The notes beneath the pieces were generated by a model, which worked only from the letters and a program-made list of their open reading frames with translations, searched no databases and was not told where the DNA came from. A DNA stretch of 64,000 nucleotides from assembly GCA_964230605.1 (NCBI GenBank), contig CAXRIN010000058.1, positions 10,969 to 74,968 of the forward strand, written 5' to 3'. Each line of letters starts with the position of its first letter. Within the stretch, counting starts at the first letter, position 1. This stretch comes from Flavobacteriaceae bacterium. Lineage in GTDB: Bacteria; Bacteroidota; Bacteroidia; Flavobacteriales_C; GCA-002722245. A program made the translations under genes and the position numbers. Below are positions 14,382 to 64,000 of the stretch, one piece after another.

Positions 14382-16525
14382 TACAACTTTTGTAATTCAC
14401 CGGTTTTAAGTGATTTTAAAACAGCAAAAGTAACTTTAGAAGTTGAATATAATTCATCAAAGCTAATAGCTAATTTTCCTTTTTCAACTGCCGTTTTCAA
14501 CGCTTTGAATTCCCCTTTAAAGCCTTTGTCTTGATTAGCATTTTTTGATTTTGTAGATTTTCCACCCTTGAAAATTTCTAATTCACGGAAGTTATCCATC
14601 TTCATTGCAATATCAGGAGCAAAAAGCTCTATATACTCCTTTGGTAACTGACTATTTCCAAAAGCATAGTAGTTAATAACAGCTGTAGATCCGTTTTGAT
14701 ATTTAATGGTAATACTTACATTATCTTCATCAGGAACGCTTTGATCTGGCTTGGTAACACAACTCGCAAATACACTCTCTGGCAATGAACCAACCAAATA
14801 AGTACAAGCGTCGATAAAGTGACAAACTTCTCCTAAAATTCTTCCTCCTCCAACTTCAGGATCTTGAATCCAAACATCTGTTGGAATAGTTCCAGCATTA
14901 ACACGGTAATTAATACTCATTGGCAATTCGCCAACAACCTTTTTCATTTCAGTCACCAAAGGCGCAAATCTTCGGTTATAACCAACTTGTAAAACAGGTT
15001 TCTTTTCAGCGGTTGAGTAAAATGTTTTTATATCCTCTAATTCATTTTCATAAATGGCTAGCGGCTTTTCTACGAAAACGTTCTTACCTGCTTTCAGTGA
15101 ATTTAAAACCTTTTCTCCATGATCATTGTGACGAGTTGTAATAAACACGGTATTGATTTCATCACTTTTTAACAGTTCTTGATAATCAGTTGTGATATAC
15201 TTGAATTCGTGCTTATTTCCTGTTGAATGAGCACTAACTCCAGTTGCCGTACATAATCCAACAAAATTTGAATTTCCAACTTCCTTTAAATTTGGAATAA
15301 TAACCGATTTGGTAAAGTTTCCTGCTCCAATTAATCCAACATTAAGTGCATCGGATTTTACAGCTGCATCAGATATTTTTACTAACTCAGATTTTAATTC
15401 AACCCCTTCTTTATAATTTAATAAAATACCCAAGTAATCTTCTTGAATTTTTCCTTCCAGTAAATCATATGCAGTCAAAGCATTGTCAAATTCATATTCA
15501 TGAGTAACCATTTCTGATGGCGTAATTCTACCTTCATCTACCAAATCTAAAAAGGCTTCAAAGTTTCTTTGCTCTGTCCATCTAACATGCGGAAAAGGAT
15601 AATCAATCCCTTGCTCTTCATATTTCGGATCATATCTACCAGGACCATAAGCCATTGAAAGCTTTAATTCCAATTCCTTTTTGTAGTATTCATTTCTTGG
15701 TATATCCATACCAACTAAACCTACAACTACAACTCTTCCCTTCATTCTAGAAATTTCACCAGCATCCATAATTGGCTGATTACTAGAAGTACTTGCTGCT
15801 ATAATAACCGCATCAGCACCATTACCATTTGTAAACAAATTAGATTTTTCAATAACTTCATTTGGCACACAAACTTCATCAGCACCCAATTTTTTCGCTA
15901 ATTCTAATTTCTTAGGGTCAAAATCTGTCCCTAACACTTTACATCCGTTTGCCTTTAATAGTTGAACTGTGATTTGACCTAGCAAACCTAATCCCATAAC
16001 CACGATTCTTTCTCCTAAAGTAGGAGCCGTTTGTCTGATTCCTTGAAGAGCTATTGAACCAACTGTTACAAAAGATGCATCAGCGTCACTAACATTTTTG
16101 GGAACCTTTACAAAAAGATTCTTCGGAACATAATTTATTTCACTGTGATTGGCATATCCTGCACCTCCACAAGCAACACGATCACCAACGGAAACACCAG
16201 TAACTTTAGAACCAACCTGCACAACTTCTCCAACACATGAATACCCCAAAGGTATTGGAGTATCTAACTTAGTAAATACTTTTTCAAGCGTATTTTTAAT
16301 ACCCTCTTGTTTCATTTTATTTACCACTTGTTTAACCAAATCAGGACGAGCTTTTGCCTTTCCTACTAATGATTTTTTGGCTAAATCAACAATCATTTTT
16401 TCAGTTCCCGCCGAAACAAGTGATGTTTTAGTTTTAACTAAAACACCATTTTCACCACAAATTGGTGCCGGCACCTCAAATACTCCTAATTCTCCAGTTT
16501 TGTATGATTGGATAAGTTGCTTCAT
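14381..16525 (-). CDS. Bi-domain oxidoreductase: Zn-dependent alcohol dehydrogenase/MDR domain fused to a Gfo/Idh/MocA domain
   Basis: The N-terminal half has MDR motifs (GYSCVGEV, GDRVACGG, VMGLGLLGQ). The C-terminal half has a Gfo/Idh/MocA Rossmann (VGLIGAGNFTKSVIIP) and the EKPL motif. I prefer ATG 16525 (MKQLIQSY) to the track start at 16600. Confidence 0.8.
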   Translation of the reverse strand: MKQLIQSYKTGELGVFEVPAPICGENGVLVKTKTSLVSAGTEKMIVDLAKKSLVGKAKARPDLVKQVVNKMKQEGIKNTLEKVFTKLDTPIPLGYSCVGEVVQVGSKVTGVSVGDRVACGGAGYANHSEINYVPKNLFVKVPKNVSDADASFVTVGSIALQGIRQTAPTLGERIVVMGLGLLGQITVQLLKANGCKVLGTDFDPKKLELAKKLGADEVCVPNEVIEKSNLFTNGNGADAVIIAASTSSNQPIMDAGEISRMKGRVVVVGLVGMDIPRNEYYKKELELKLSMAYGPGRYDPKYEEQGIDYPFPHVRWTEQRNFEAFLDLVDEGRITPSEMVTHEYEFDNALTAYDLLEGKIQEDYLGILLNYKEGVELKSELVKISDAAVKSDALNVGLIGAGNFTKSVIIPNLKEVGNSNFVGLCTATGVSAHSTGNKHEFKYITTDYQELLKSDEINTVFITTRHNDHGEKVLNSLKAGKNVFVEKPLAIYENELEDIKTFYSTAEKKPVLQVGYNRRFAPLVTEMKKVVGELPMSINYRVNAGTIPTDVWIQDPEVGGGRILGEVCHFIDACTYLVGSLPESVFASCVTKPDQSVPDEDNVSITIKYQNGSTAVINYYAFGNSQLPKEYIELFAPDIAMKMDNFRELEIFKGGKSTKSKNANQDKGFKGEFKALKTAVEKGKLAISFDELYSTSKVTFAVLKSLKTGELQKL

Positions 16526-16546
16526 GCTTCTGTTAGATTTTGGGGA

Positions 16547-16554
16547 CAAATATA
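16547..16554 (-). promoter_or_regulatory. Bacteroidota-type -7 box (TATATTTG) of polysaccharide operon A
   Basis: The minus strand reads TATATTTG, 21 nt upstream of ATG 16525, matching TAnnTTTG. Confidence 0.4.
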
Positions 16555-16619
16555 GCAAGCAAAACCCAGTGTTAAGGGACGATTTTGTTTTATTATCCAA
16601 AATCAGTTGTGTTTAAAAC

Positions 16620-16649
16620 AAAAAAGCCATCTAGATGGACTAGATGGCT
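16620..16649 (-). terminator. Strong orphan Rho-independent terminator (minus-strand orientation)
   Basis: Perfect 10-bp stem AGCCATCTAG (16625-16634) / CTAGATGGCT (16640-16649) with a 5-nt loop. On the minus strand it is followed by TTTTTTGTTTT. No annotated minus-strand gene ends here. Confidence 0.55.
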
Positions 16650-16707
16650 GTGGGTAAGTTTAAAGAACGATTTAATAAGGTAAATATGTTTAATCAATTT
16701 TTGCTTG

Positions 16708-16733
16708 AAAAATGGGCGGGGCCTAATCCGCCC
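16708..16733 (-). terminator. Second terminator-like GC hairpin (minus-strand orientation)
   Basis: GGGCGG (16714-16719) / CCGCCC (16728-16733) with an 8-nt loop. On the minus strand it is followed by ATTTTTC. Confidence 0.35.
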
Positions 16734-16830
16734 AAATAAACCTATAATTATGAGATGGAATACCACCCTCAACTTTAACGAAAGTATTTCACTTTGCTTA
16801 GGTAACCTAAAAACAATACATGACTGTGGT

Positions 16831-16872
16831 TGGACAACCCCATATTCTACATCGGACAATCACTGGACAACC
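16831..16872. promoter_or_regulatory. Three phased (T/C)GGACAA(C/T)C repeats, candidate regulator-binding sites
   Basis: TGGACAACC at 16831, CGGACAATC at 16853 and TGGACAACC at 16864, with start-to-start spacing of 22 and 11 nt (one or two helical turns). The first copy sits within the palindrome GGTTGGACAACC. Confidence 0.35.
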
Positions 16873-17001
16873 ACTTACAAATAAAGTCTAGACACCCAAT
16901 TTCATTATGATTTTATCATTTTTTAGTTTTCTTTCTAGGATTCTATTAGTTTCGTAGCAAGGAATAAATGATTAATTTTTATCTACAATTTCCCTAAACC
17001 T

Positions 17002-19797
17002 ATGATTATTAAAAAACTTTTTCTTTTATTTCTGACGATCTTTTGGATGAACACTTTTTGCTCCGTTCCTGAAATAGTCAATTTTACTTCTAAAAACTAC
17101 GATGCTCACTCCATTAACTATGATATTGAACAAGATACATCTGGCTTGATTTATATTGGGAATGCTTATTGTGTTTTAGAATTTGACGCTAAAAAATTCA
17201 GGAAAATCCCTCTAGTATCTGGTAAAAGTGCCATTAGTTTCGCCAAAGATGATCAAGGAAAAATATTTGTTGGTTCTTCATCTGAATTTGGATACTTAAC
17301 CAAAGATTCTACTCAAAAAACAGTCTATAAATCATTGAAGCATCTTATTCCCGGAAAAAAAGAAATCAATGAAATTTTTCACACTTCGTGGTACGACGGT
17401 GCTATTTATTTTGGATGTTATAGAGGGATTTACAGATATAAAAACGAGATTATTGAAAAAGTTGAGGGATTTACAGACTCCACTCTAATTGACCATATTC
17501 AAATCGTAAAAGGAGAACTTTTATATTGGGAAAACGCTAAAGGTTTGGGAAGAGTTCAAGGTTTAAAGGCAACAAATTTTCATGAAGATATTTATACCAG
17601 AGCAGTAAGGGGTATTGAATACATAAATGAAAACTATGTGATTTTTGGAAAGTTCGGCGTAAAAGCAATCAGAAAACCAAACCTTTATTCTTCTGCTCAG
17701 GCTGAGTTAATTAAAGTCGATGTTTCATCAATCCTCAAATTAAATGATGATGAAGTTTTAATAGGAACAATTAATAGTGGAATATACCTTTTGAATGCAC
17801 AAGGAAATCTTAAAAGGCATTTTACTGTTGATCATGGTTTACAAGATAATTTCATAAGAAAATTGTTCAAAGACAAAGAGGGCAACATTTGGATTGCTTA
17901 TAACAATGGAATTGGAATCTTCAAATGGGGCTCTCCTTTACAATACATTACTCATTCACAAGGTTTTGAAGGAATGGGTTATACAGGAGTAGTTTTTGAA
18001 AACAAGCTTTACATCGGAACCTCAAGAGGACTATATGTAATGAACGATTGGGAAGAAGGCTTATCTAAAATTGATGATTTTGAATTAGTCCCTGGAATGC
18101 CTGAAGGAACAATTAATTATTTGACCATCGCTAACGGAAAACTAATTATTTGCCAAGCTGCTGAAACATATACCCTTGAAAATAACAAAGCTCAAAGAAT
18201 TTCAGATGGATCATGGTATGGATCATGGATTTGGAAAACCGCAGATAAATACAATAAAAATGAAGCTTTTGTAGGTACTTATGAAGGAGTAGAGCGATAC
18301 ATTTTTAAAAATAACAACTGGATTCATTTAGGACACATTAAAAAATTTGCTGAGTCTTCCAGAGTTATGGAAATTGATGAAAGAGGAATAATTTGGGCAA
18401 TTCAGGGAAATAAAGGTTTGTATAGAGTTGAATTAAACGAATCAAGAGATTCAGCCATCTCAATAATTAATTATGCTGAAAAACCAGGATTCAAATCCGA
18501 TGACTTTAATGATATTTTTTATTTCGATAATAAGATATATATCACAACATATAAGGGAGTTTATTTCCTCAAAGGGGATTCTTTGATATTAGATAAGTCA
18601 TTTGATAACATTAAAAAATATGTTCAAAGAGCACGAATATATGATTACAACAAAATTTATGGAATTTATAAAGATCAGGCCTACTTGATCAAAAAAGTGG
18701 ATCAAAAATGGCAAATTGATCCATCTTCGCTTTCGTTTTCAAAAAGTAGTCTTGTAGGTTCAACTGAATTTTTTAGTAAAATATCCAAAAACACTTATCT
18801 CTTAGGAACTCAAGATGGATATGCCATTTATAAACCAAACAAGGAATCTAAACCTTCTGATTCTAAATGTTTGATTAGAAATATAGAATTGATTGGTGAA
18901 GAAGTTGATTCAAGCTTATTCCTTGGAAAACCTAAACAGAAATTAGAGTTTGAGTATGCTTACAATAATATTCGTTTTACATTCTCAATTCCTGAATACA
19001 GTGTAATCGACCAAATAATATATCAAACTCAACTCCTGAGAGATAACAAACCTTTAAGTGGTTGGCAAAATGTAAAAGAGGTTAATTATAAAGAATTCAC
19101 CAACCTAAAGGAAGGAGAGTATACTTTTATTGTAAGAGCTAAAAAAGGAAATCAAGCAATGGGAACTGAAACATACAACTTCAGTATTCTACCTCCTTGG
19201 TATAGAACAAATACTGCGAATATCACTTATTTCATAGGGCTTATTTTAGGTGGTTTGTTTATTAGACTGAGATTTAAAAAACAAGCGGAAAAGCTTAAAG
19301 CAGAAAAAACGCGAGAATTAGAGATAAAGGAAAAATTACACAATGCTGAAAAGTTAGAAATTGAGCTGAAAAACAAAGACAATGAATTAGCATACATGGC
19401 ACTTTCCTACACGCAAAAAAAGGAAATGCTTGCATCATTAGAAAACAAATTAGATGCGCTTTCAAAAGAATTAGAGCACAATGACAGACAAAAAGTTAAC
19501 TCTTTAAAAAGAACAGTCTCTTCAAGCATTGATGATGAAAGTAACTGGGAAAACTTTCAAGTTCACTTCGATCAAAAAAACAATAATTTCTTTCAAAAAC
19601 TTAAAGAAGTTGATAATAAGCTAAACGAATCATATTTGTTATTTCTTTCTTATGTAAGAATGGGAAAATCAAATAAGGAAATTGCCGATTTATTAAACAT
19701 ATCAGTTGCTGCTGTTGAGAAAAGAAAATATAGATTAAAGAAAAAGTGGGGGCTTGAAAATGATACCAGTTTCACAGATTTCTTGAGAGATTTATAA
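17002..19797 (+). CDS. Transmembrane one-component regulator: beta-propeller (Reg_prop-like) + Y_Y_Y sensor, TM helix, coiled coil, LuxR-type HTH
   Basis: N-terminal signal/anchor, then about 700 aa of propeller-like repeats. A Y_Y_Y-type segment (EGEYTFIVRAKK...ILPPWYRT) is followed directly by the TM helix ITYFIGLILGGLFIRLRF. A heptad-rich segment follows, then the C-terminal SNKEIADLLNISVAAVEKRKYRLKKKWGL HTH. No kinase or receiver motifs. Confidence 0.75.
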   Translation: MIIKKLFLLFLTIFWMNTFCSVPEIVNFTSKNYDAHSINYDIEQDTSGLIYIGNAYCVLEFDAKKFRKIPLVSGKSAISFAKDDQGKIFVGSSSEFGYLTKDSTQKTVYKSLKHLIPGKKEINEIFHTSWYDGAIYFGCYRGIYRYKNEIIEKVEGFTDSTLIDHIQIVKGELLYWENAKGLGRVQGLKATNFHEDIYTRAVRGIEYINENYVIFGKFGVKAIRKPNLYSSAQAELIKVDVSSILKLNDDEVLIGTINSGIYLLNAQGNLKRHFTVDHGLQDNFIRKLFKDKEGNIWIAYNNGIGIFKWGSPLQYITHSQGFEGMGYTGVVFENKLYIGTSRGLYVMNDWEEGLSKIDDFELVPGMPEGTINYLTIANGKLIICQAAETYTLENNKAQRISDGSWYGSWIWKTADKYNKNEAFVGTYEGVERYIFKNNNWIHLGHIKKFAESSRVMEIDERGIIWAIQGNKGLYRVELNESRDSAISIINYAEKPGFKSDDFNDIFYFDNKIYITTYKGVYFLKGDSLILDKSFDNIKKYVQRARIYDYNKIYGIYKDQAYLIKKVDQKWQIDPSSLSFSKSSLVGSTEFFSKISKNTYLLGTQDGYAIYKPNKESKPSDSKCLIRNIELIGEEVDSSLFLGKPKQKLEFEYAYNNIRFTFSIPEYSVIDQIIYQTQLLRDNKPLSGWQNVKEVNYKEFTNLKEGEYTFIVRAKKGNQAMGTETYNFSILPPWYRTNTANITYFIGLILGGLFIRLRFKKQAEKLKAEKTRELEIKEKLHNAEKLEIELKNKDNELAYMALSYTQKKEMLASLENKLDALSKELEHNDRQKVNSLKRTVSSSIDDESNWENFQVHFDQKNNNFFQKLKEVDNKLNESYLLFLSYVRMGKSNKEIADLLNISVAAVEKRKYRLKKKWGLENDTSFTDFLRDL

Positions 19798-19887
19798 AAT
19801 AATAGACAAAAAAAGGAATATCAGAGGTTAATTTTCGTTACATCAATTGCAGTACAAAATATGTTGTAAATTTATTGTGCTACTGTT

Positions 19888-22215
19888 ATGATTAAAACTA
19901 TCAGTCACATATCCATCCTGATTTTATTGTTTGGTTCATTATTATCAACCGCTCAATTAGCCGGAATAGGTAAATTTTATGATCACCTTCCTTATAACCA
20001 AGGAACTGTTGTATGCTTGGCTGGGGACAAAGTTTATGCTGGAGTTGGGCAAACACTTTTTGTGTTAGATCAAAAAGACAATTCAATTACCAAACTAAGC
20101 AAAGTAAATCAGCTCTCTGATTTAGGTGTTACAACTATAGCTTATTCCAAAAAACATAAAAGTGTTATTATTGGATACTTAACAGGAAATATCGACATCA
20201 TTGTTAATAACCAAGTCATTAATATCCCTGATATTGAACGAACCTCAATTCAAGGTTTTAAATCTATAAACGATATTTACATTGATGAAGACTTTGCTTT
20301 TTTAAGCACTGGTTTTGGTATTGTAAAACTTGACATACAACGTCAAGAAATCAAAGAAACCTATCTGATTGGAGATAACGCAACAAATGTTTTTGTTAAC
20401 GACATTACTTTTTACAATGATTCCATTTTCGCAGCAACACAAGAAGGTATATATGTTGCTAATTTAAATAGTGCAAATCTTTCAAACTTTCAAAATTGGT
20501 CTGTTTTACCCTTCCGATTAGGCACCAATTTTAACGCCTTAGCTTCCAATGATTCCATTATAATGTTTAATGCATCAATTGAAGGAAATAACAAGGATAC
20601 TATTCATTTATACAATAAAGGTGTTTGGAGTAAACTAAGTTTCGAAGGATACAAAAATGCTGATGTTTACAGTATTGAATATGAGAATGAAGAGTGGCTT
20701 TTAACTTTTAATGACATTGCTCATTGTTTAAACAAAAATGGAGAAGCTAAAGAAAAGACATTTACTTATGCCGGAAATTACACTGGAATAAAACCTAAAC
20801 ACATGATTTCTGATGGTAATACTGGTTACTGGATTGCCGATAATAAATATGGATTAGCGCACAGATTTTCAGCATGGAATTATGATGTTTTTACCCCATC
20901 AGGCCCTGCATACTATCAGGCATTTAAATTAGATTTTAAAGGAGATGCACTCTGGGTTGCATCTGGAACATTAACAGCATTTTGGGGAAATAATTACGAC
21001 AAAAAAGGAGTATATCGCTACCAAAATAATGAATGGGATTCATACAATCGAGGAGGTTATGATTCAATATCTGATATTAGTACGGTTAGTATAAACCCAT
21101 TTAATACTCAAGAAGTTTATTTTGGAAGTTGGGGAAAAGGTTTAGTGCGTACCGAAAATGGTAAAATCAAAGATGTTTTTCAAAATCATAATTCCGGAAT
21201 TAACTCTCTTAATTTATTCAGAAATCACTTGGTTGGAGGAAATACATTCGATGAAAATGGAGTGCTTTGGGTTACATGCTCTGGCGCCCCTGGTGCTCCC
21301 GTAACTAACCCCCTAGTTGCATATGATGGTAAAGATTGGCACGAATATAATCTTGAAAATAAATTGGTAAATTCCACGCATGCCGGTGAAATATTTGTAG
21401 ATGCAGAAGGATATAAATGGTTTGCTTCAAGAGATAATGGTGTTTTCGTATTTGATGATAATGGAACTTTAGGAGATGATAACGATGATAGAGTTGCATT
21501 AATTACAACAGGTGAAAACAGTGGGAATTTACCTACCAAAAATGTGCATTGCATTGCACAAGATCAAGATGGAAAAGTGTGGATAGGTACCGAAGAAGGA
21601 TTAACTGTTTTAAATTCAACTTTTGGTGTTTTTGATGGGGAAGCAAAAGCGGATAGAATTATAATTGAACAAGACGGTTCTTTTCAATACTTATTAGAAA
21701 CGGAAATTGTGAAAACCATAAAAGTAGATGCAGCAAATAGAAAATGGATTGGAACAGCATCTGGAGGTGTATACTTAATTAGTGAGGACGGACAAGAGAC
21801 AATACATCACTTTACAACAGAAAATTCACCTTTAATATCAAATACAATATTCGATATCGAAATATTCGGTACTACTGGAGAAGTATTCTTCGCAACGGAC
21901 AAAGGATTAATGTCATATATTGGTGATGCAACAGACGGTGATGAATATAATGGTCCAACCTATGCGTATCCAAACCCCGTAAGGCCTGATTATGAAGGGT
22001 TGATTGGAATTAAAGGTTTGGCTGAAAATGCTGAAGTAAAAATTACAGATATAACAGGAAACGTTATATACGAAACCATTAGCCAAGGAACAACCGCTAC
22101 CTGGGATGGAAAATCATTAAATGGTAAACGAGCCCAAACTGGTGTTTATATCGTTTTCTCAGTTAACGAGGATGGTTCTCAAAAAGAAGTAGCTAAAATT
22201 CTTTTTATCAATTAA
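19888..22215 (+). CDS. porZ: Secreted two-propeller protein with T9SS C-terminal sorting domain, PorZ-like
   Basis: Signal peptide MIKTISHISILILLFGSLLSTAQ and Reg_prop-like repeats (WIGTEEGL, WIGTASGGVY, WFASRDNGVF). C-terminus YAYPNPVRPDYEGLIGIKGL..VKITDITGNVIYE..TGVYIVFS..KILFIN fits the T9SS CTD. Size (775 aa) and architecture match PorZ; the gene symbol is tentative. Confidence 0.55.
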   Translation: MIKTISHISILILLFGSLLSTAQLAGIGKFYDHLPYNQGTVVCLAGDKVYAGVGQTLFVLDQKDNSITKLSKVNQLSDLGVTTIAYSKKHKSVIIGYLTGNIDIIVNNQVINIPDIERTSIQGFKSINDIYIDEDFAFLSTGFGIVKLDIQRQEIKETYLIGDNATNVFVNDITFYNDSIFAATQEGIYVANLNSANLSNFQNWSVLPFRLGTNFNALASNDSIIMFNASIEGNNKDTIHLYNKGVWSKLSFEGYKNADVYSIEYENEEWLLTFNDIAHCLNKNGEAKEKTFTYAGNYTGIKPKHMISDGNTGYWIADNKYGLAHRFSAWNYDVFTPSGPAYYQAFKLDFKGDALWVASGTLTAFWGNNYDKKGVYRYQNNEWDSYNRGGYDSISDISTVSINPFNTQEVYFGSWGKGLVRTENGKIKDVFQNHNSGINSLNLFRNHLVGGNTFDENGVLWVTCSGAPGAPVTNPLVAYDGKDWHEYNLENKLVNSTHAGEIFVDAEGYKWFASRDNGVFVFDDNGTLGDDNDDRVALITTGENSGNLPTKNVHCIAQDQDGKVWIGTEEGLTVLNSTFGVFDGEAKADRIIIEQDGSFQYLLETEIVKTIKVDAANRKWIGTASGGVYLISEDGQETIHHFTTENSPLISNTIFDIEIFGTTGEVFFATDKGLMSYIGDATDGDEYNGPTYAYPNPVRPDYEGLIGIKGLAENAEVKITDITGNVIYETISQGTTATWDGKSLNGKRAQTGVYIVFSVNEDGSQKEVAKILFIN

Positions 22216-22314
22216 TTCCAGATACTGATAACATTACCAACAAAAAATCAACCTTATTTACTATTTACACTAAATTAACTTTAACTTTACACTCCTTAAA
22301 TTTTCTGCCTGTTT

Positions 22315-30751: not shown

Positions 30752-30787
30752 TCTATCCCTATTCCATAAAAATATGAAAATCACGCA

Positions 30788-30795
30788 CAAAAATA
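30788..30795 (-). promoter_or_regulatory. Candidate -7 box (TATTTTTG) for the minus-strand GT
   Basis: The minus strand reads TATTTTTG, 36 nt upstream of ATG 30751. Confidence 0.3.
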
Positions 30796-30875
30796 ACGTT
30801 TGTAATTTGGATAAGCTATTAATTACTGACTATTCTGATCATTGGTAGAATAAAGAATAAATGAAAAGATTGCGT

Positions 30876-30883
30876 TATATTTG
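30876..30883 (+). promoter_or_regulatory. Bacteroidota-type -7 box (TATATTTG) upstream of wza
   Basis: TATATTTG lies 18 nt upstream of ATG 30902. Confidence 0.4.
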
Positions 30884-36530: not shown

Positions 36531-36546
36531 AAATCTCGATTTTTGT

Positions 36547-36554
36547 CAAATATA
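36547..36554 (-). promoter_or_regulatory. Bacteroidota-type -7 box (TATATTTG) for the 35568-36530 gene
   Basis: The minus strand reads TATATTTG, 16 nt upstream of ATG 36530. Confidence 0.4.
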
Positions 36555-36644
36555 AATTAAGATACAAGTTCAACTATAACTTTACTCCAAAAAGTTTTTT
36601 GATTTGAAAATAATGGTTGAATTTTGACGTAAATATTCTACTCT

Positions 36645-63185: not shown

Positions 63186-64000
63186 ATGAAAAAGTATTTG
63201 TTGTCTCTTTTATTTTATTACATCATTACCTCTGTTTCTTCCCAATCAATTTTAAAATACGATTTACTCATTACTGAAGTGATGTTTGATCCTACTCCCG
63301 CAGTTGGTTTACCTGAAGAGGAATTTTTAGAGATTTACAATAATTCGACGCAGGCAATTGAATTAAAAGACATTGAAATTCATATTGGGATAAAGTATTT
63401 CAGGCCTGATAGTTTTGTAATTCAACCAGACTCATTTTATGTTTTTTGGGATGCTGAAATTCCTACTTTAAGAAATAGTGGTGATTCCATTTCCATAAAA
63501 TTCAATAATGATATAATACACAGAGTGGAATATTATTCAAACCTCCATGTTTCAGATTTCAAAGAAAACGGCGGTTGGAGTTTAGAGCTAGTTGATATTT
63601 CAAAACCATGTATTAACTATGGTAATTGGAGTTCGTCTTTAAATCATCTCGGTGGTACTCCTGGAAAAAAAAATAGTGTTGAGAAAAAAATAGAAACACC
63701 TACAGTTAAAGTAGAAAGTTATTTTCCTGTCTCTGAAAATGAGCTTTTGATAACTTTTAATGTTCCAATTGAAAGTCTTGAAACAAATCACAATTACCAA
63801 ATCAATTATAATGACGCATTAATTGAAATCCCAACCTTAGATTCAATTAATATTGATTCTCTTTTGATCTTAGATGTTTCCTCTTGTTTTGCAGCAAACT
63901 TTAATCCAATTCAAATTAAGTATGGTTTACCGCATGATCCCGACTCTGGTGATTTGATTATCAGCGAAATTCTTTTTAACCCAGATGAACAAGGGAGTGA
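63186..64000 (+). CDS. Lamin-tail-domain (LTD) containing secreted protein, 3' end beyond the window
   Basis: ATG at 63186 and open to the window end. Signal peptide MKKYLLSLLFYYIITSVSSQ. Two LTD-type starts (LLITEVMFDP..EFLEIYN and LIISEILFNP). Absent from the ORF track because there is no stop in the window. Confidence 0.6.
   Translation, partial: MKKYLLSLLFYYIITSVSSQSILKYDLLITEVMFDPTPAVGLPEEEFLEIYNNSTQAIELKDIEIHIGIKYFRPDSFVIQPDSFYVFWDAEIPTLRNSGDSISIKFNNDIIHRVEYYSNLHVSDFKENGGWSLELVDISKPCINYGNWSSSLNHLGGTPGKKNSVEKKIETPTVKVESYFPVSENELLITFNVPIESLETNHNYQINYNDALIEIPTLDSINIDSLLILDVSSCFAANFNPIQIKYGLPHDPDSGDLIISEILFNPDEQGS

What the first reader, a model, noticed from the sequence alone, without database searches (positions are those of the whole stretch)
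17002..22215. Kinase-less transmembrane propeller/Y_Y_Y-LuxR regulator paired with a PorZ-like T9SS protein, wedged between polysaccharide loci
Seen: the 931-aa protein joins a large extracytoplasmic propeller + Y_Y_Y-type sensor (ending PPWYRT) to one TM helix, a long coiled coil and a C-terminal LuxR HTH. I see no histidine kinase or receiver motifs. A gene 91 nt downstream encodes a 775-aa secreted propeller protein ending in a T9SS CTD (YPNPVRP...VKITDITGNVIYE...GVYIVFS...KILFIN). Established: Reg_prop + Y_Y_Y sensors are the glycan-binding modules of Bacteroides hybrid two-component systems (for example the heparin-sensing BT4663). PorZ of Porphyromonas is a two-propeller + CTD protein that delivers anionic LPS to the T9SS sortase. 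Inference: the regulator may sense a periplasmic glycan directly, without phosphorelay. That glycan could be the same polymer handled by the PorZ-like neighbour and built by the flanking loci. The regulator could then control those loci through the repeat-containing intergenic region at 16.5-17.0 kb.
Basis: partly seen in the sequence, partly recalled or inferred. Interest (0 to 1): 0.62.

Follow-up and report, generated by a model that had tools for sequence, protein, structure and literature searches.

The report
Kinase-less membrane glycan-sensor regulator beside PorZ
A membrane-spanning sensor fused directly to a DNA-binding domain (a type recently described as BguR) sits next to an ordinary PorZ secretion gene in an uncultured marine Flavobacteriales genome. 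The pairing is a local quirk of one lineage, but the regulator belongs to a distinct subfamily with its own conserved DNA operator, which in relatives also marks genes for secreted sugar-degrading enzymes.

Summary
Both genes are real and lie at the stated coordinates. The 775-aa protein is a true PorZ ortholog (NCBIfam equivalog 628 bits against a cutoff of 260). The 931-aa protein has a signal peptide, an HTCS-like double propeller with Y_Y_Y, one TM helix, a coiled coil and a LuxR/GerE HTH, with no kinase or receiver. A 2026 preprint (BguR) already describes and tests this architecture, so it is not new. New here: the protein belongs to a separate subfamily, known only from MAGs, with an invariant recognition helix (VEKRKYRLK) and a conserved, helically phased GGACAA direct-repeat operator upstream of its own gene (window 16832-16895). 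The operator is kept between clades sharing about 36% protein identity. In three distant relatives the same array precedes adjacent genes for T9SS-secreted CAZyme/CBM proteins. The PorZ adjacency arose once, in one clade. 76 more distant PorZ loci lack the regulator. porZ has its own -7-like promoter box and no full operator. In the 64-kb window the operator occurs once, so control of porZ or the downstream polysaccharide loci is unsupported. Control of the divergent upstream operon cannot be excluded. Verdict: new member of a known kind, moderate interest.

The parts
16832..16895 (+). Candidate operator: a helically phased direct-repeat array. Boxes are GGACAA at 16832, GGACAA-N5-GGACAA at 16854-16870, and AGACAC at 16890.
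   Evidence: It is the only PWM hit in the window (28 bits; the next best is 12). The same array lies upstream of the regulator gene, on the same strand, in 15 of 24 family loci, including clades with only 34-38% protein identity. No hit of 20 bits or more occurs in 0.84 Mb of PorZ-only loci.
16947..16980 (+). Putative promoter of the regulator gene: a conserved AGTTTCGTA block (16947-16956) and a TAATTTTT -7-like box (16973-16980), with 19 nt between TTTC and the -7 box.
   Evidence: The AGTTTCGT block is conserved in the window, L010, L011 and L012. Assigning it as a Bacteroidota -33/-7 promoter is an inference from the known consensus TTTG-N19-21-TAnnTTTG.
17002..19797 (+). Membrane-spanning one-component regulator (931 aa). 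Signal peptide aa 1-21, double beta-propeller plus Y_Y_Y ectodomain aa 22-737, TM aa ~738-758 (nt 19213-19275), coiled-coil linker aa ~759-845, conserved pre-HTH box (NWENFQVHFDQKN) and LuxR/GerE HTH aa 876-931 (nt 19627-19794).
19856..19874 (+). Conserved block AAAATATGTTGTAAATTTA in the 90-nt spacer. It contains a Bacteroidota -7-like box (TAAATTTA at 19867-19874; TAAATTTG in L001 and L011) 14 nt before the porZ ATG, and is the likely porZ promoter.
   Evidence: Alignment of 10 orthologous spacers. No terminator-like hairpin lies in the spacer. There is no paired GGACAA box, only a lone AGACAA at 19804.
19888..22215 (+). porZ: a T9SS PorZ ortholog (775 aa) with a signal peptide, two beta-propellers and a type A C-terminal domain (aa ~694-775, nt 21967-22212).
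   Evidence: NF052228 equivalog at 628.5 bits vs cutoff 260, PF21544, TIGR04183 and PDB 5m11 at E=3e-61. Two metatranscriptome contigs map inside it.

Best explanation
The 931-aa gene encodes a BguR-type membrane-spanning one-component transcription factor. A periplasmic HTCS-like double-propeller/Y_Y_Y domain probably binds an oligosaccharide. The signal would pass through one TM helix and a dimeric coiled coil to a LuxR/GerE HTH that stays at the membrane, with no phosphorelay. The protein belongs to a distinct subfamily, so far seen only in uncultured Flavobacteriales/Bacteroidota, defined by an invariant recognition helix (VEKRKYRLK). A helically phased GGACAA direct-repeat array co-occurs with that helix and is most simply read as the subfamily's own operator. 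The regulator would bind this array upstream of its own gene (autoregulation). In relatives the array also precedes adjacent genes for T9SS-secreted glycoside hydrolases and CBM proteins. The neighbouring gene is an ordinary PorZ ortholog with its own promoter. Its adjacency to the regulator is synteny acquired once in one marine clade, not a conserved functional module. Shown: the architecture, the absence of a kinase, PorZ orthology, conservation and specificity of the repeat array, and the lineage restriction of the pairing. Inferred: that this regulator binds the array, that the ligand is a glycan, and that it acts as an activator.
For: Architecture and lack of phosphorelay. The fold is closest to the HTCS sensors BT3049 (3v9f, TM 0.73) and BT4663 (4a2l, TM 0.72), with PorZ only at rank 16. 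Precedent: BguR has the same domain order, and its deletion abolishes an induction of more than 80-fold of a laminarin PUL. Subfamily: a 100/100 clade separate from BguR-like proteins. The HTH is 82-88% identical where ectodomains are 40-70% identical, and 62-66% where they are ~32%. VEKRKYRLK is invariant, against VEDTRYRIRK in the beta-glucan-linked P0074. Operator: GGACAA-N5-(G/A)GACA(A/G) lies upstream of the regulator gene, on the same strand, in 15 of 24 loci across clades A and D. There are no hits of 20 bits or more in 0.84 Mb of unrelated PorZ loci, and exactly one hit in the 64-kb window. Additional arrays lie 66-193 nt upstream of L023 genes for a CTD protein and a GH5-CTD, the L025 gene for CBM6/CBM35-CTD, and the L111 gene for GH5-CBM6 with a CTD-like C-terminus. 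Clade-D regulators are flanked by GH18-CTD, GH19-CTD, GH64 and lectin-CHU_C genes. PorZ pairing: present only in clade A and absent from 76 more distant PorZ loci. A conserved -7-like box precedes porZ.
Against: No binding experiment exists, so another factor could bind the GGACAA array. Clades B and C and locus L028 share the recognition helix but have no recognisable array upstream. In the putative target promoters the array is inverted relative to the downstream gene, whereas it is co-oriented with the regulator gene. Orientation therefore fits the divergent upstream gene as well as, or better than, autoregulation. The window's own clade has no CAZyme neighbour, so its ligand and regulon are unknown. 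The Y_Y_Y Pfam hit is below threshold in this protein.
Confidence: 0.6

Rival explanations
1. The regulator is functionally tied to the T9SS itself. It would sense a T9SS-related periplasmic or surface signal, for example the anionic LPS or glycan that PorZ handles, or secretion load, and tune expression of T9SS components and cargo, including porZ.
For: Core T9SS genes lie next to family members in several lineages. PorZ is adjacent in clade A and 4.3 kb away in L020. An orphan GldM/PorM paralog is adjacent in L005 and L009. PorP/SprF is adjacent in L019 and L024. Within +-3 genes the counts are CHU_C 6, Por_Secre_tail 6, PorP_SprF 3 and PorZ 2 of 52 proteins, against Por_Secre_tail 3 of 62 farther away. 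The sensor and PorZ share the Reg_prop propeller type (hhalign 77%, E=2e-5; PorZ vs 3v9f E=9e-24). No terminator separates the two genes.
Against: None of the 76 more distant PorZ loci has such a regulator within 7 kb. The adjacency arose once. porZ has its own conserved -7 box and no operator pair in the spacer. The enrichment is mainly of cargo genes, which are abundant in these genomes, and it is explained equally well if the regulated CAZymes simply happen to be T9SS cargo. The sensor fold is much closer to glycan-binding HTCS sensors than to PorZ.
Confidence: 0.17
2. The GGACAA array mainly controls the divergently transcribed polysaccharide operon (genes from 16525 leftwards: the ADH-GFO fusion, heparinase II/III-like, GT and WecA-like genes). 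The regulator would then couple an extracellular glycan signal to synthesis of a surface polysaccharide.
For: The window, L001, L012, L016 and L028 all keep this operon divergent from the regulator. In L001 the array sits in a 160-nt shared promoter region, 79 nt from the operon start. Relative to that operon, the array has the same orientation as in the putative target promoters of L023, L025 and L111.
Against: L010 and L011, in the same clade and with the same array, have no divergent operon. In the window the array is ~330 nt from the operon start, with two minus-strand terminator-like hairpins in between. The array is conserved in clade D, where the divergent gene is an unrelated AraC-type regulator.
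Confidence: 0.15
3. The GGACAA array is bound by a different, unidentified transcription factor that controls this regulator gene, and the regulator's own operator is something else.
For: There is no direct binding evidence. Clades B and C have the same recognition helix but no array upstream.
Against: The only gene common to all array-bearing intergenic regions is the regulator. The array co-varies with the recognition helix, being absent from the BguR-like L110. It reappears next to the regulator upstream of neighbouring genes in L023, L025 and L111.
Confidence: 0.2

Closest known systems
BguR of Formosa agariphila (beta-glucan utilization regulator; Bartosik et al., bioRxiv 10.64898/2026.01.10.698779)
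   Same: Same domain order and size (940 vs 931 aa): signal peptide, tandem beta-propeller HTCS-like sensor, Y_Y_Y, one TM helix, helical linker and GerE HTH, with no HisKA, HATPase or REC. Both are marine Flavobacteriia proteins, and both have a conserved motif in the adjacent intergenic region.
   Different: BguR homologs are reported only next to SusCD beta-glucan PULs, and this protein has no SusC/D or PUL nearby. It falls in a separate clade from a beta-glucan-linked proxy (P0074, 27% identity) and has a different recognition helix. Relatives sit next to T9SS-secreted CAZymes rather than SusCD systems. The BguR sequence itself was not available for comparison.
Bacteroides hybrid two-component systems (BT4663 heparin sensor, BT3049, BT4673)
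   Same: The periplasmic sensor fold matches (Foldseek TM 0.72-0.73, E~1e-30; sequence E=5e-19), as does the PPWY(R)T junction to the TM helix.
   Different: The whole cytoplasmic phosphorelay (HisKA, HATPase, REC) and the AraC output are missing, replaced by a coiled coil and a LuxR/GerE HTH.
PorZ (PG1604/PG93) of Porphyromonas gingivalis, PDB 5m11
   Same: The 775-aa neighbour is an ortholog, with a full-length equivalog HMM match, two propellers and a retained type A CTD.
   Different: None detected at sequence level. The A-LPS shuttle function is known only for P. gingivalis (from my own knowledge of Lasica 2016 and Madej 2021, not re-read here) and is untested in Flavobacteriales.
SusR, and the ToxR/CadC-type membrane-bound one-component regulators
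   Same: The sensor and the DNA-binding domain are in one membrane-anchored polypeptide, and there is no phosphotransfer.
   Different: Unrelated sensor and output domains. ToxR and CadC have an N-terminal cytoplasmic wHTH, whereas here the HTH is C-terminal, after a type I membrane topology.
PorXY/SigP regulation of the T9SS in P. gingivalis
   Same: Possible regulatory input into T9SS-related genes.
   Different: PorXY is a phosphorelay working with an ECF sigma factor, and there is no homology. The link of the present regulator to T9SS components is only by neighbourhood.

Membership tests
BguR-type membrane-spanning one-component system | Signal peptide plus a periplasmic tandem beta-propeller sensor resembling HTCS sensors | tested here: met
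   Reg_prop hit. PDB sequence hits to 3v9f, 3va6 and 4a2l. AF2 ectodomain pLDDT ~90. Foldseek TM 0.72-0.73 to BT3049 and BT4663.
BguR-type membrane-spanning one-component system | Membrane-proximal Y_Y_Y domain | tested here: met
   The Pfam Y_Y_Y hit at aa 688-724 scores 19 bits, below the 26.6 cutoff. However, the best PDB stretch aligns aa 647-733 to the Y_Y_Y region of 3v9f, the PPWYRT motif is present, and many orthologs carry PF07495.
BguR-type membrane-spanning one-component system | A single TM helix between the sensor and the output domain | tested here: met
   There is one internal hydrophobic segment at aa 738-758, at a conserved position in 38 orthologs. It is part of the long helix at aa 737-823.
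BguR-type membrane-spanning one-component system | Helical linker plus a C-terminal GerE/LuxR HTH, with no HisKA, HATPase_c or Response_reg | tested here: met
   GerE scores 24.3 bits against a 23.5 cutoff. No phosphorelay domain appears at E<=0.1 in Pfam or NCBIfam, and there are no H/N/G boxes.
BguR-type membrane-spanning one-component system | Located beside a SusCD beta-glucan PUL | tested here: not met
   The 64-kb window has no SusC/SusD or GH16/17/30/144 genes.
BguR-type membrane-spanning one-component system | Sequence orthology to BguR (UniProt T2KMC4) | not testable with these tools
   The BguR sequence is not held. A beta-glucan-linked proxy, P0074 (followed by GH16, GH64 and GH18 genes), is 27% identical in the ectodomain and 41% in the HTH, and falls in the outgroup.
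Hybrid two-component system (HTCS) | Cytoplasmic HisKA + HATPase_c + receiver + AraC HTH | tested here: not met
   None was detected. The cytoplasmic part is only 170 aa.
T9SS PorZ | Full-length match to the PorZ equivalog HMM above its curated cutoff | tested here: met
   NF052228 scores 628.5 bits against a cutoff of 260, covering aa 8-775 on profile positions 6-757 of 757.
T9SS PorZ | N-terminal PorZ-type propeller and a type A C-terminal sorting domain | tested here: met
   PF21544 scores 130.6 bits and TIGR04183 scores 26.8 vs 23. Pfam Por_Secre_tail at 25.6 is just under its cutoff of 27.
T9SS PorZ | Binds and delivers anionic LPS to the PorU sortase | not testable with these tools
   This is a biochemical property, known only for P. 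gingivalis.

The most novel reading that the evidence does not exclude
This MAG-only subfamily is a dedicated glycan-responsive master regulator of T9SS output. Through the GGACAA array it would switch on T9SS-secreted glycanases and adhesins. In some lineages it would also control T9SS machinery genes (porZ, an orphan gldM/porM paralog, porP/sprF). Its PorZ-related propeller ectodomain would read the same surface or periplasmic glycan that PorZ handles, which would make it the first sensor known to couple substrate glycan availability to T9SS attachment-complex capacity.
Probability: 0.15. Interest if true: 0.65.

Novelty: new member of a known kind. Interest (0 to 1): 0.38.

Why it matters
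Regulation of glycan degradation and of T9SS cargo in marine Flavobacteriia is poorly known, and BguR is the first tested membrane one-component glycan regulator. This locus shows that the architecture extends beyond SusCD PULs. A separate, uncultured-only subfamily has a recognisable operator that can be used to predict regulons directly from MAGs, and in relatives it points to T9SS-secreted chitinase, glucanase and cellulase genes. For the specific claim of a regulator-PorZ module, the result is largely negative. That is useful in itself, because it prevents over-reading a lineage-specific synteny.

Tried and rejected
1. Missed kinase or receiver domains: none found in Pfam or NCBIfam at E<=0.1, and no motif hits.

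2. The regulator sensor and PorZ as a recent tandem duplication: rejected. BLASTP gives E=0.1 and hhalign gives only 77% probability. Foldseek ranks PorZ 16th, behind the HTCS sensors.

3. A general PorZ-regulator pairing: rejected. Of 80 PorZ loci from metagenomes, only the 3 closest carry the regulator. 76 at 30-43% identity lack it, and L033 is cut at its 5' end.

4. Co-transcription of the regulator gene and porZ: unresolved. There is no terminator, but a conserved -7 box precedes porZ. The one metatranscriptome run shows only two 151-nt contigs inside porZ. Other runs are DNA or of unknown type.

5. A known RNA family in the 16400-17100 intergenic region: none in Rfam at E<=1.

6. Homology between the ~357-aa divergent gene of clade B and the AraC-type divergent gene of clade D: none.

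7. The operator in clades B and C and in L028: not found, even at low PWM thresholds.

8. Operator copies upstream of porZ, 22216-22314, 30752-30880, 36531-36644 or the LTD gene at 63186: none.

Full report
OBSERVATION.

The 931-aa protein has the following features.
- Pfam gives Reg_prop (aa 279-301), GerE (aa 882-925, just above the gathering score) and a sub-threshold Y_Y_Y match (aa 688-724). No HisKA, HATPase_c or Response_reg hit appears in either Pfam or NCBIfam.
- A motif scan finds no H-, N-, G1- or G2-box.
- Hydropathy shows an N-terminal signal-like segment and one internal hydrophobic segment at aa ~738-758, directly after PPWYRT. That segment keeps its position, but not its sequence, in all 38 orthologs.
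- An AlphaFold2 model built on the ortholog alignment is confident in the ectodomain (pLDDT ~90). It predicts one long helix at aa 737-823 followed by a small helical domain.
- Foldseek puts the model closest to the periplasmic sensors of the Bacteroides hybrid two-component systems BT3049 (3v9f, TM 0.73) and BT4663 (4a2l, TM 0.72). PorZ (5m11) follows only at rank 16.

The 775-aa protein is not merely PorZ-like. It matches the NCBIfam PorZ equivalog model over its full length at 628.5 bits against a cutoff of 260. It has the PorZ N-terminal propeller domain and a type A CTD, and it matches the P. gingivalis PorZ crystal structure sequence at E=3e-61. The flanks are polysaccharide-biosynthesis loci, as stated.

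WHAT IS ALREADY KNOWN. A 2026 preprint describes BguR of Formosa agariphila (bioRxiv 10.64898/2026.01.10.698779). BguR is 940 aa with a signal peptide, two propellers, Y_Y_Y, one TM helix, a helical linker and GerE, and it has no phosphorelay domains. It is required for growth on laminarin and for an induction of more than 80-fold of the adjacent PUL. A search with the cytoplasmic module alone (aa 762-931) against 1.84 billion representatives found 2,939 proteins at E<=1e-10, mostly at the C-terminus of ~930-990-aa proteins but also in shorter ones. Only 5 reached E<=1e-30.

A DISTINCT SUBFAMILY. Homologs fall into two groups. One is a tight group at >=45% identity, mostly unnamed metagenome and MAG proteins. 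The other is a large group at 25-32% identity, annotated as triple-tyrosine-motif or CsgD-family proteins.

A scan of one genome per prokaryote species with the ortholog alignment returned only 20 loci, all from MAGs. A maximum-likelihood tree shows the window protein and these loci as a 100/100 clade. It is separated by a long branch from proteins such as P0074. P0074 is followed by GH16, GH64-CBM-CTD and GH18-CBM-CTD genes, which is a BguR-like beta-glucan context.

Within the subfamily the output domain is far more conserved than the sensor. The HTH is 82-88% identical where the ectodomain is 40-70% identical, and 62-66% where the ectodomain is ~32%. The presumed recognition helix VEKRKYRLK is invariant, whereas the outgroup has VE(x)(S/T)RYR(I/L)RKK.

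A CONSERVED OPERATOR. Aligning the regions upstream of the regulator gene revealed GGACAA-N5-GGACAA.
- In the window the array consists of GGACAA at 16832, GGACAA-N5-GGACAA at 16854-16870 and AGACAC at 16890. The spacings of 22, 11 and 25 nt keep the boxes roughly in helical phase.
- A match with two mismatches or fewer lies within 400 nt upstream of the regulator gene, always on its strand, in 15 of 24 family loci. It sits at -81 to -169 in the window's clade, and at -112 to -114 in seven of the eight clade-D loci whose proteins are only 34-38% identical. The eighth, L017, has it at -21 from the ORF's first ATG, about -120 from where homology to the window protein begins.
- A PWM built from the sites gives exactly one hit in the 64-kb window (28 bits; the next best is 12). 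It gives no hit of 20 bits or more in 0.84 Mb of unrelated PorZ loci.
- The only gene shared by all these intergenic regions is the regulator itself.
- The three remaining hits of 20 bits or more, plus a GGACAT-variant array in a further lineage, all lie next to family regulators. They sit 66-193 nt upstream of genes for secreted carbohydrate-active proteins: L023 (a CTD protein and a GH5-CTD cellulase, downstream of a GH19-CTD chitinase), L025 (CBM6/CBM35-CTD) and L111 (GH5-CBM6/35 with a CTD-like C-terminus).

I read the array as the subfamily's operator. It would be used for autoregulation and for control of neighbouring secreted CAZyme genes.

Caveats:
- No binding data exist.
- Clades B and C and locus L028 lack the array.
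- In the putative target promoters the array is inverted relative to the gene, so upstream of the regulator it could serve the divergent gene instead, or as well.

THE PORZ PAIRING. From the regulator side, PorZ follows the regulator only in the window's own clade (window, L001/L002, L010, L011, L012, L016, L028, L030-L032). There PorZ itself has diverged to 56-68% identity. That clade is monophyletic (99/99), so the adjacency arose once. Sister clades have other neighbours.

From the PorZ side, only 3 of 80 PorZ loci from metagenomes carry the regulator, and those are the closest ones. 76 loci at 30-43% identity have no regulator within 7 kb. L033, at 75% identity, is cut at its 5' end and cannot be assessed.

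Within the clade, the upstream polysaccharide operon is not constant, because L010 and L011 have an LTD-CHU_C cargo gene there instead. The 78-97-nt spacer has no terminator-like hairpin. It does contain a conserved block ending in TAAATTT(A/G) 14-30 nt before the porZ ATG, which matches the Bacteroidota -7 consensus TAnnTTTG. There is no pair of GGACAA boxes in the spacer. One estuarine metatranscriptome has two short contigs inside porZ and none in the regulator gene or across the spacer. This is weak evidence, but it is consistent with independent transcription. The two proteins share only the Reg_prop propeller type (BLASTP E=0.1; hhalign 77%, E=2e-5) and are not recent duplicates.

IS THERE A T9SS LINK AT ALL? 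Partly.
- Family regulators sit next to an orphan GldM/PorM paralog in L005 and L009 (TIGR03517 at 263 bits).
- They sit next to PorP/SprF genes in L019 and L024.
- One lies 4.3 kb from PorZ in L020.
- Among 52 proteins within +-3 genes of ten non-redundant regulators, CHU_C (6), Por_Secre_tail (6), PorP_SprF (3) and PorZ (2) are the top families. Among 62 proteins farther out, only Por_Secre_tail (3) appears.

Most of this enrichment is explained if the regulated genes are secreted glycanases, lectins and CBM proteins that happen to use the T9SS. A direct role in T9SS machinery control remains a minority possibility.

MECHANISM (best estimate). An oligosaccharide binds the periplasmic double propeller of a dimer, as in BT4663. 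This step is inferred from the fold. The signal is transmitted through the TM helices and the conserved coiled coil. The membrane-tethered LuxR-type HTHs then bind the phased GGACAA repeats upstream of the -33/-7 promoter and activate transcription, as BguR activates its PUL. This last step is also inferred. The ligand and regulon in this genome are unknown. The window contains only the site at the regulator's own promoter region, which is shared with the divergent polysaccharide operon, ~330 nt away across two minus-strand hairpins.

VERDICT. The regulator is a new member, in a distinct MAG-only subfamily, of the recently described BguR-type one-component regulators. porZ is an ordinary ortholog, and the pairing is lineage-specific synteny. 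The useful new element is the subfamily-specific operator and its association with T9SS-secreted CAZyme genes.

Noticed in passing
L005:5482-7929 and L009:10748-12352: An orphan GldM/PorM paralog (TIGR03517 at 263 bits, with no gldK/L/N beside it) lies next to regulators of this subfamily in two lineages. In L005 it is followed by an ECF sigma factor and an 80-aa ORF on the same strand as the regulator. A stand-alone GldM copy is unusual.
   Followed up: partly
L017-L020, L024, L026, L029 (e.g. L018:8520-9602 -): In clade D a ~360-aa gene is conserved divergently upstream of the regulator. [quoted passage not shown] The two membrane regulators share the GGACAA-bearing intergenic region.
   Followed up: partly
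window 16625-16649 and 16713-16734 (minus strand): Two terminator-like hairpins with T-tails on the minus strand lie between the GGACAA array and the start of the divergent polysaccharide operon. No Rfam family matches 16400-17100. They could end a short divergent transcript that starts near the operator, or insulate the operon.
   Followed up: partly
window 19798-19850, and the orthologous spacers in L001, L010-L012, L028: Besides the -7-like box, the regulator-porZ spacer has two further conserved blocks, GGAATA(A/T)A and TTCGTT. An AGTTTCGTA block also precedes the regulator gene (16947-16956). Their function is unknown.
   Followed up: no
window 63186-63998 (+, runs off the end): A Lamin-tail-domain protein here is 45% identical to the LTD-CHU_C T9SS cargo gene that lies immediately upstream of the regulator in L010 and L011. 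In the window it lies 41 kb downstream of porZ, and no operator precedes it.
   Followed up: partly
one search hit list (P0125, P0132, P0140-P0143 and others): The conserved cytoplasmic module (coiled coil, HFDxxNxNF box, LuxR HTH) also ends proteins of ~190-700 aa. It is therefore probably combined with other, non-propeller sensor domains in Bacteroidota.
   Followed up: no
L020 and L022 (same MAG, nzgw151): One groundwater Flavobacteriales MAG carries two paralogs of the subfamily. One has the operator, the AraC neighbour and GH18-CTD genes. The other sits next to a 1382-aa CHU_C cargo gene and has no strong operator.
   Followed up: no
(all 20 loci): Every genome that encodes this subfamily in the species-representative collection is a metagenome-assembled genome. 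No cultured isolate was found, which limits genetics.
   Followed up: no
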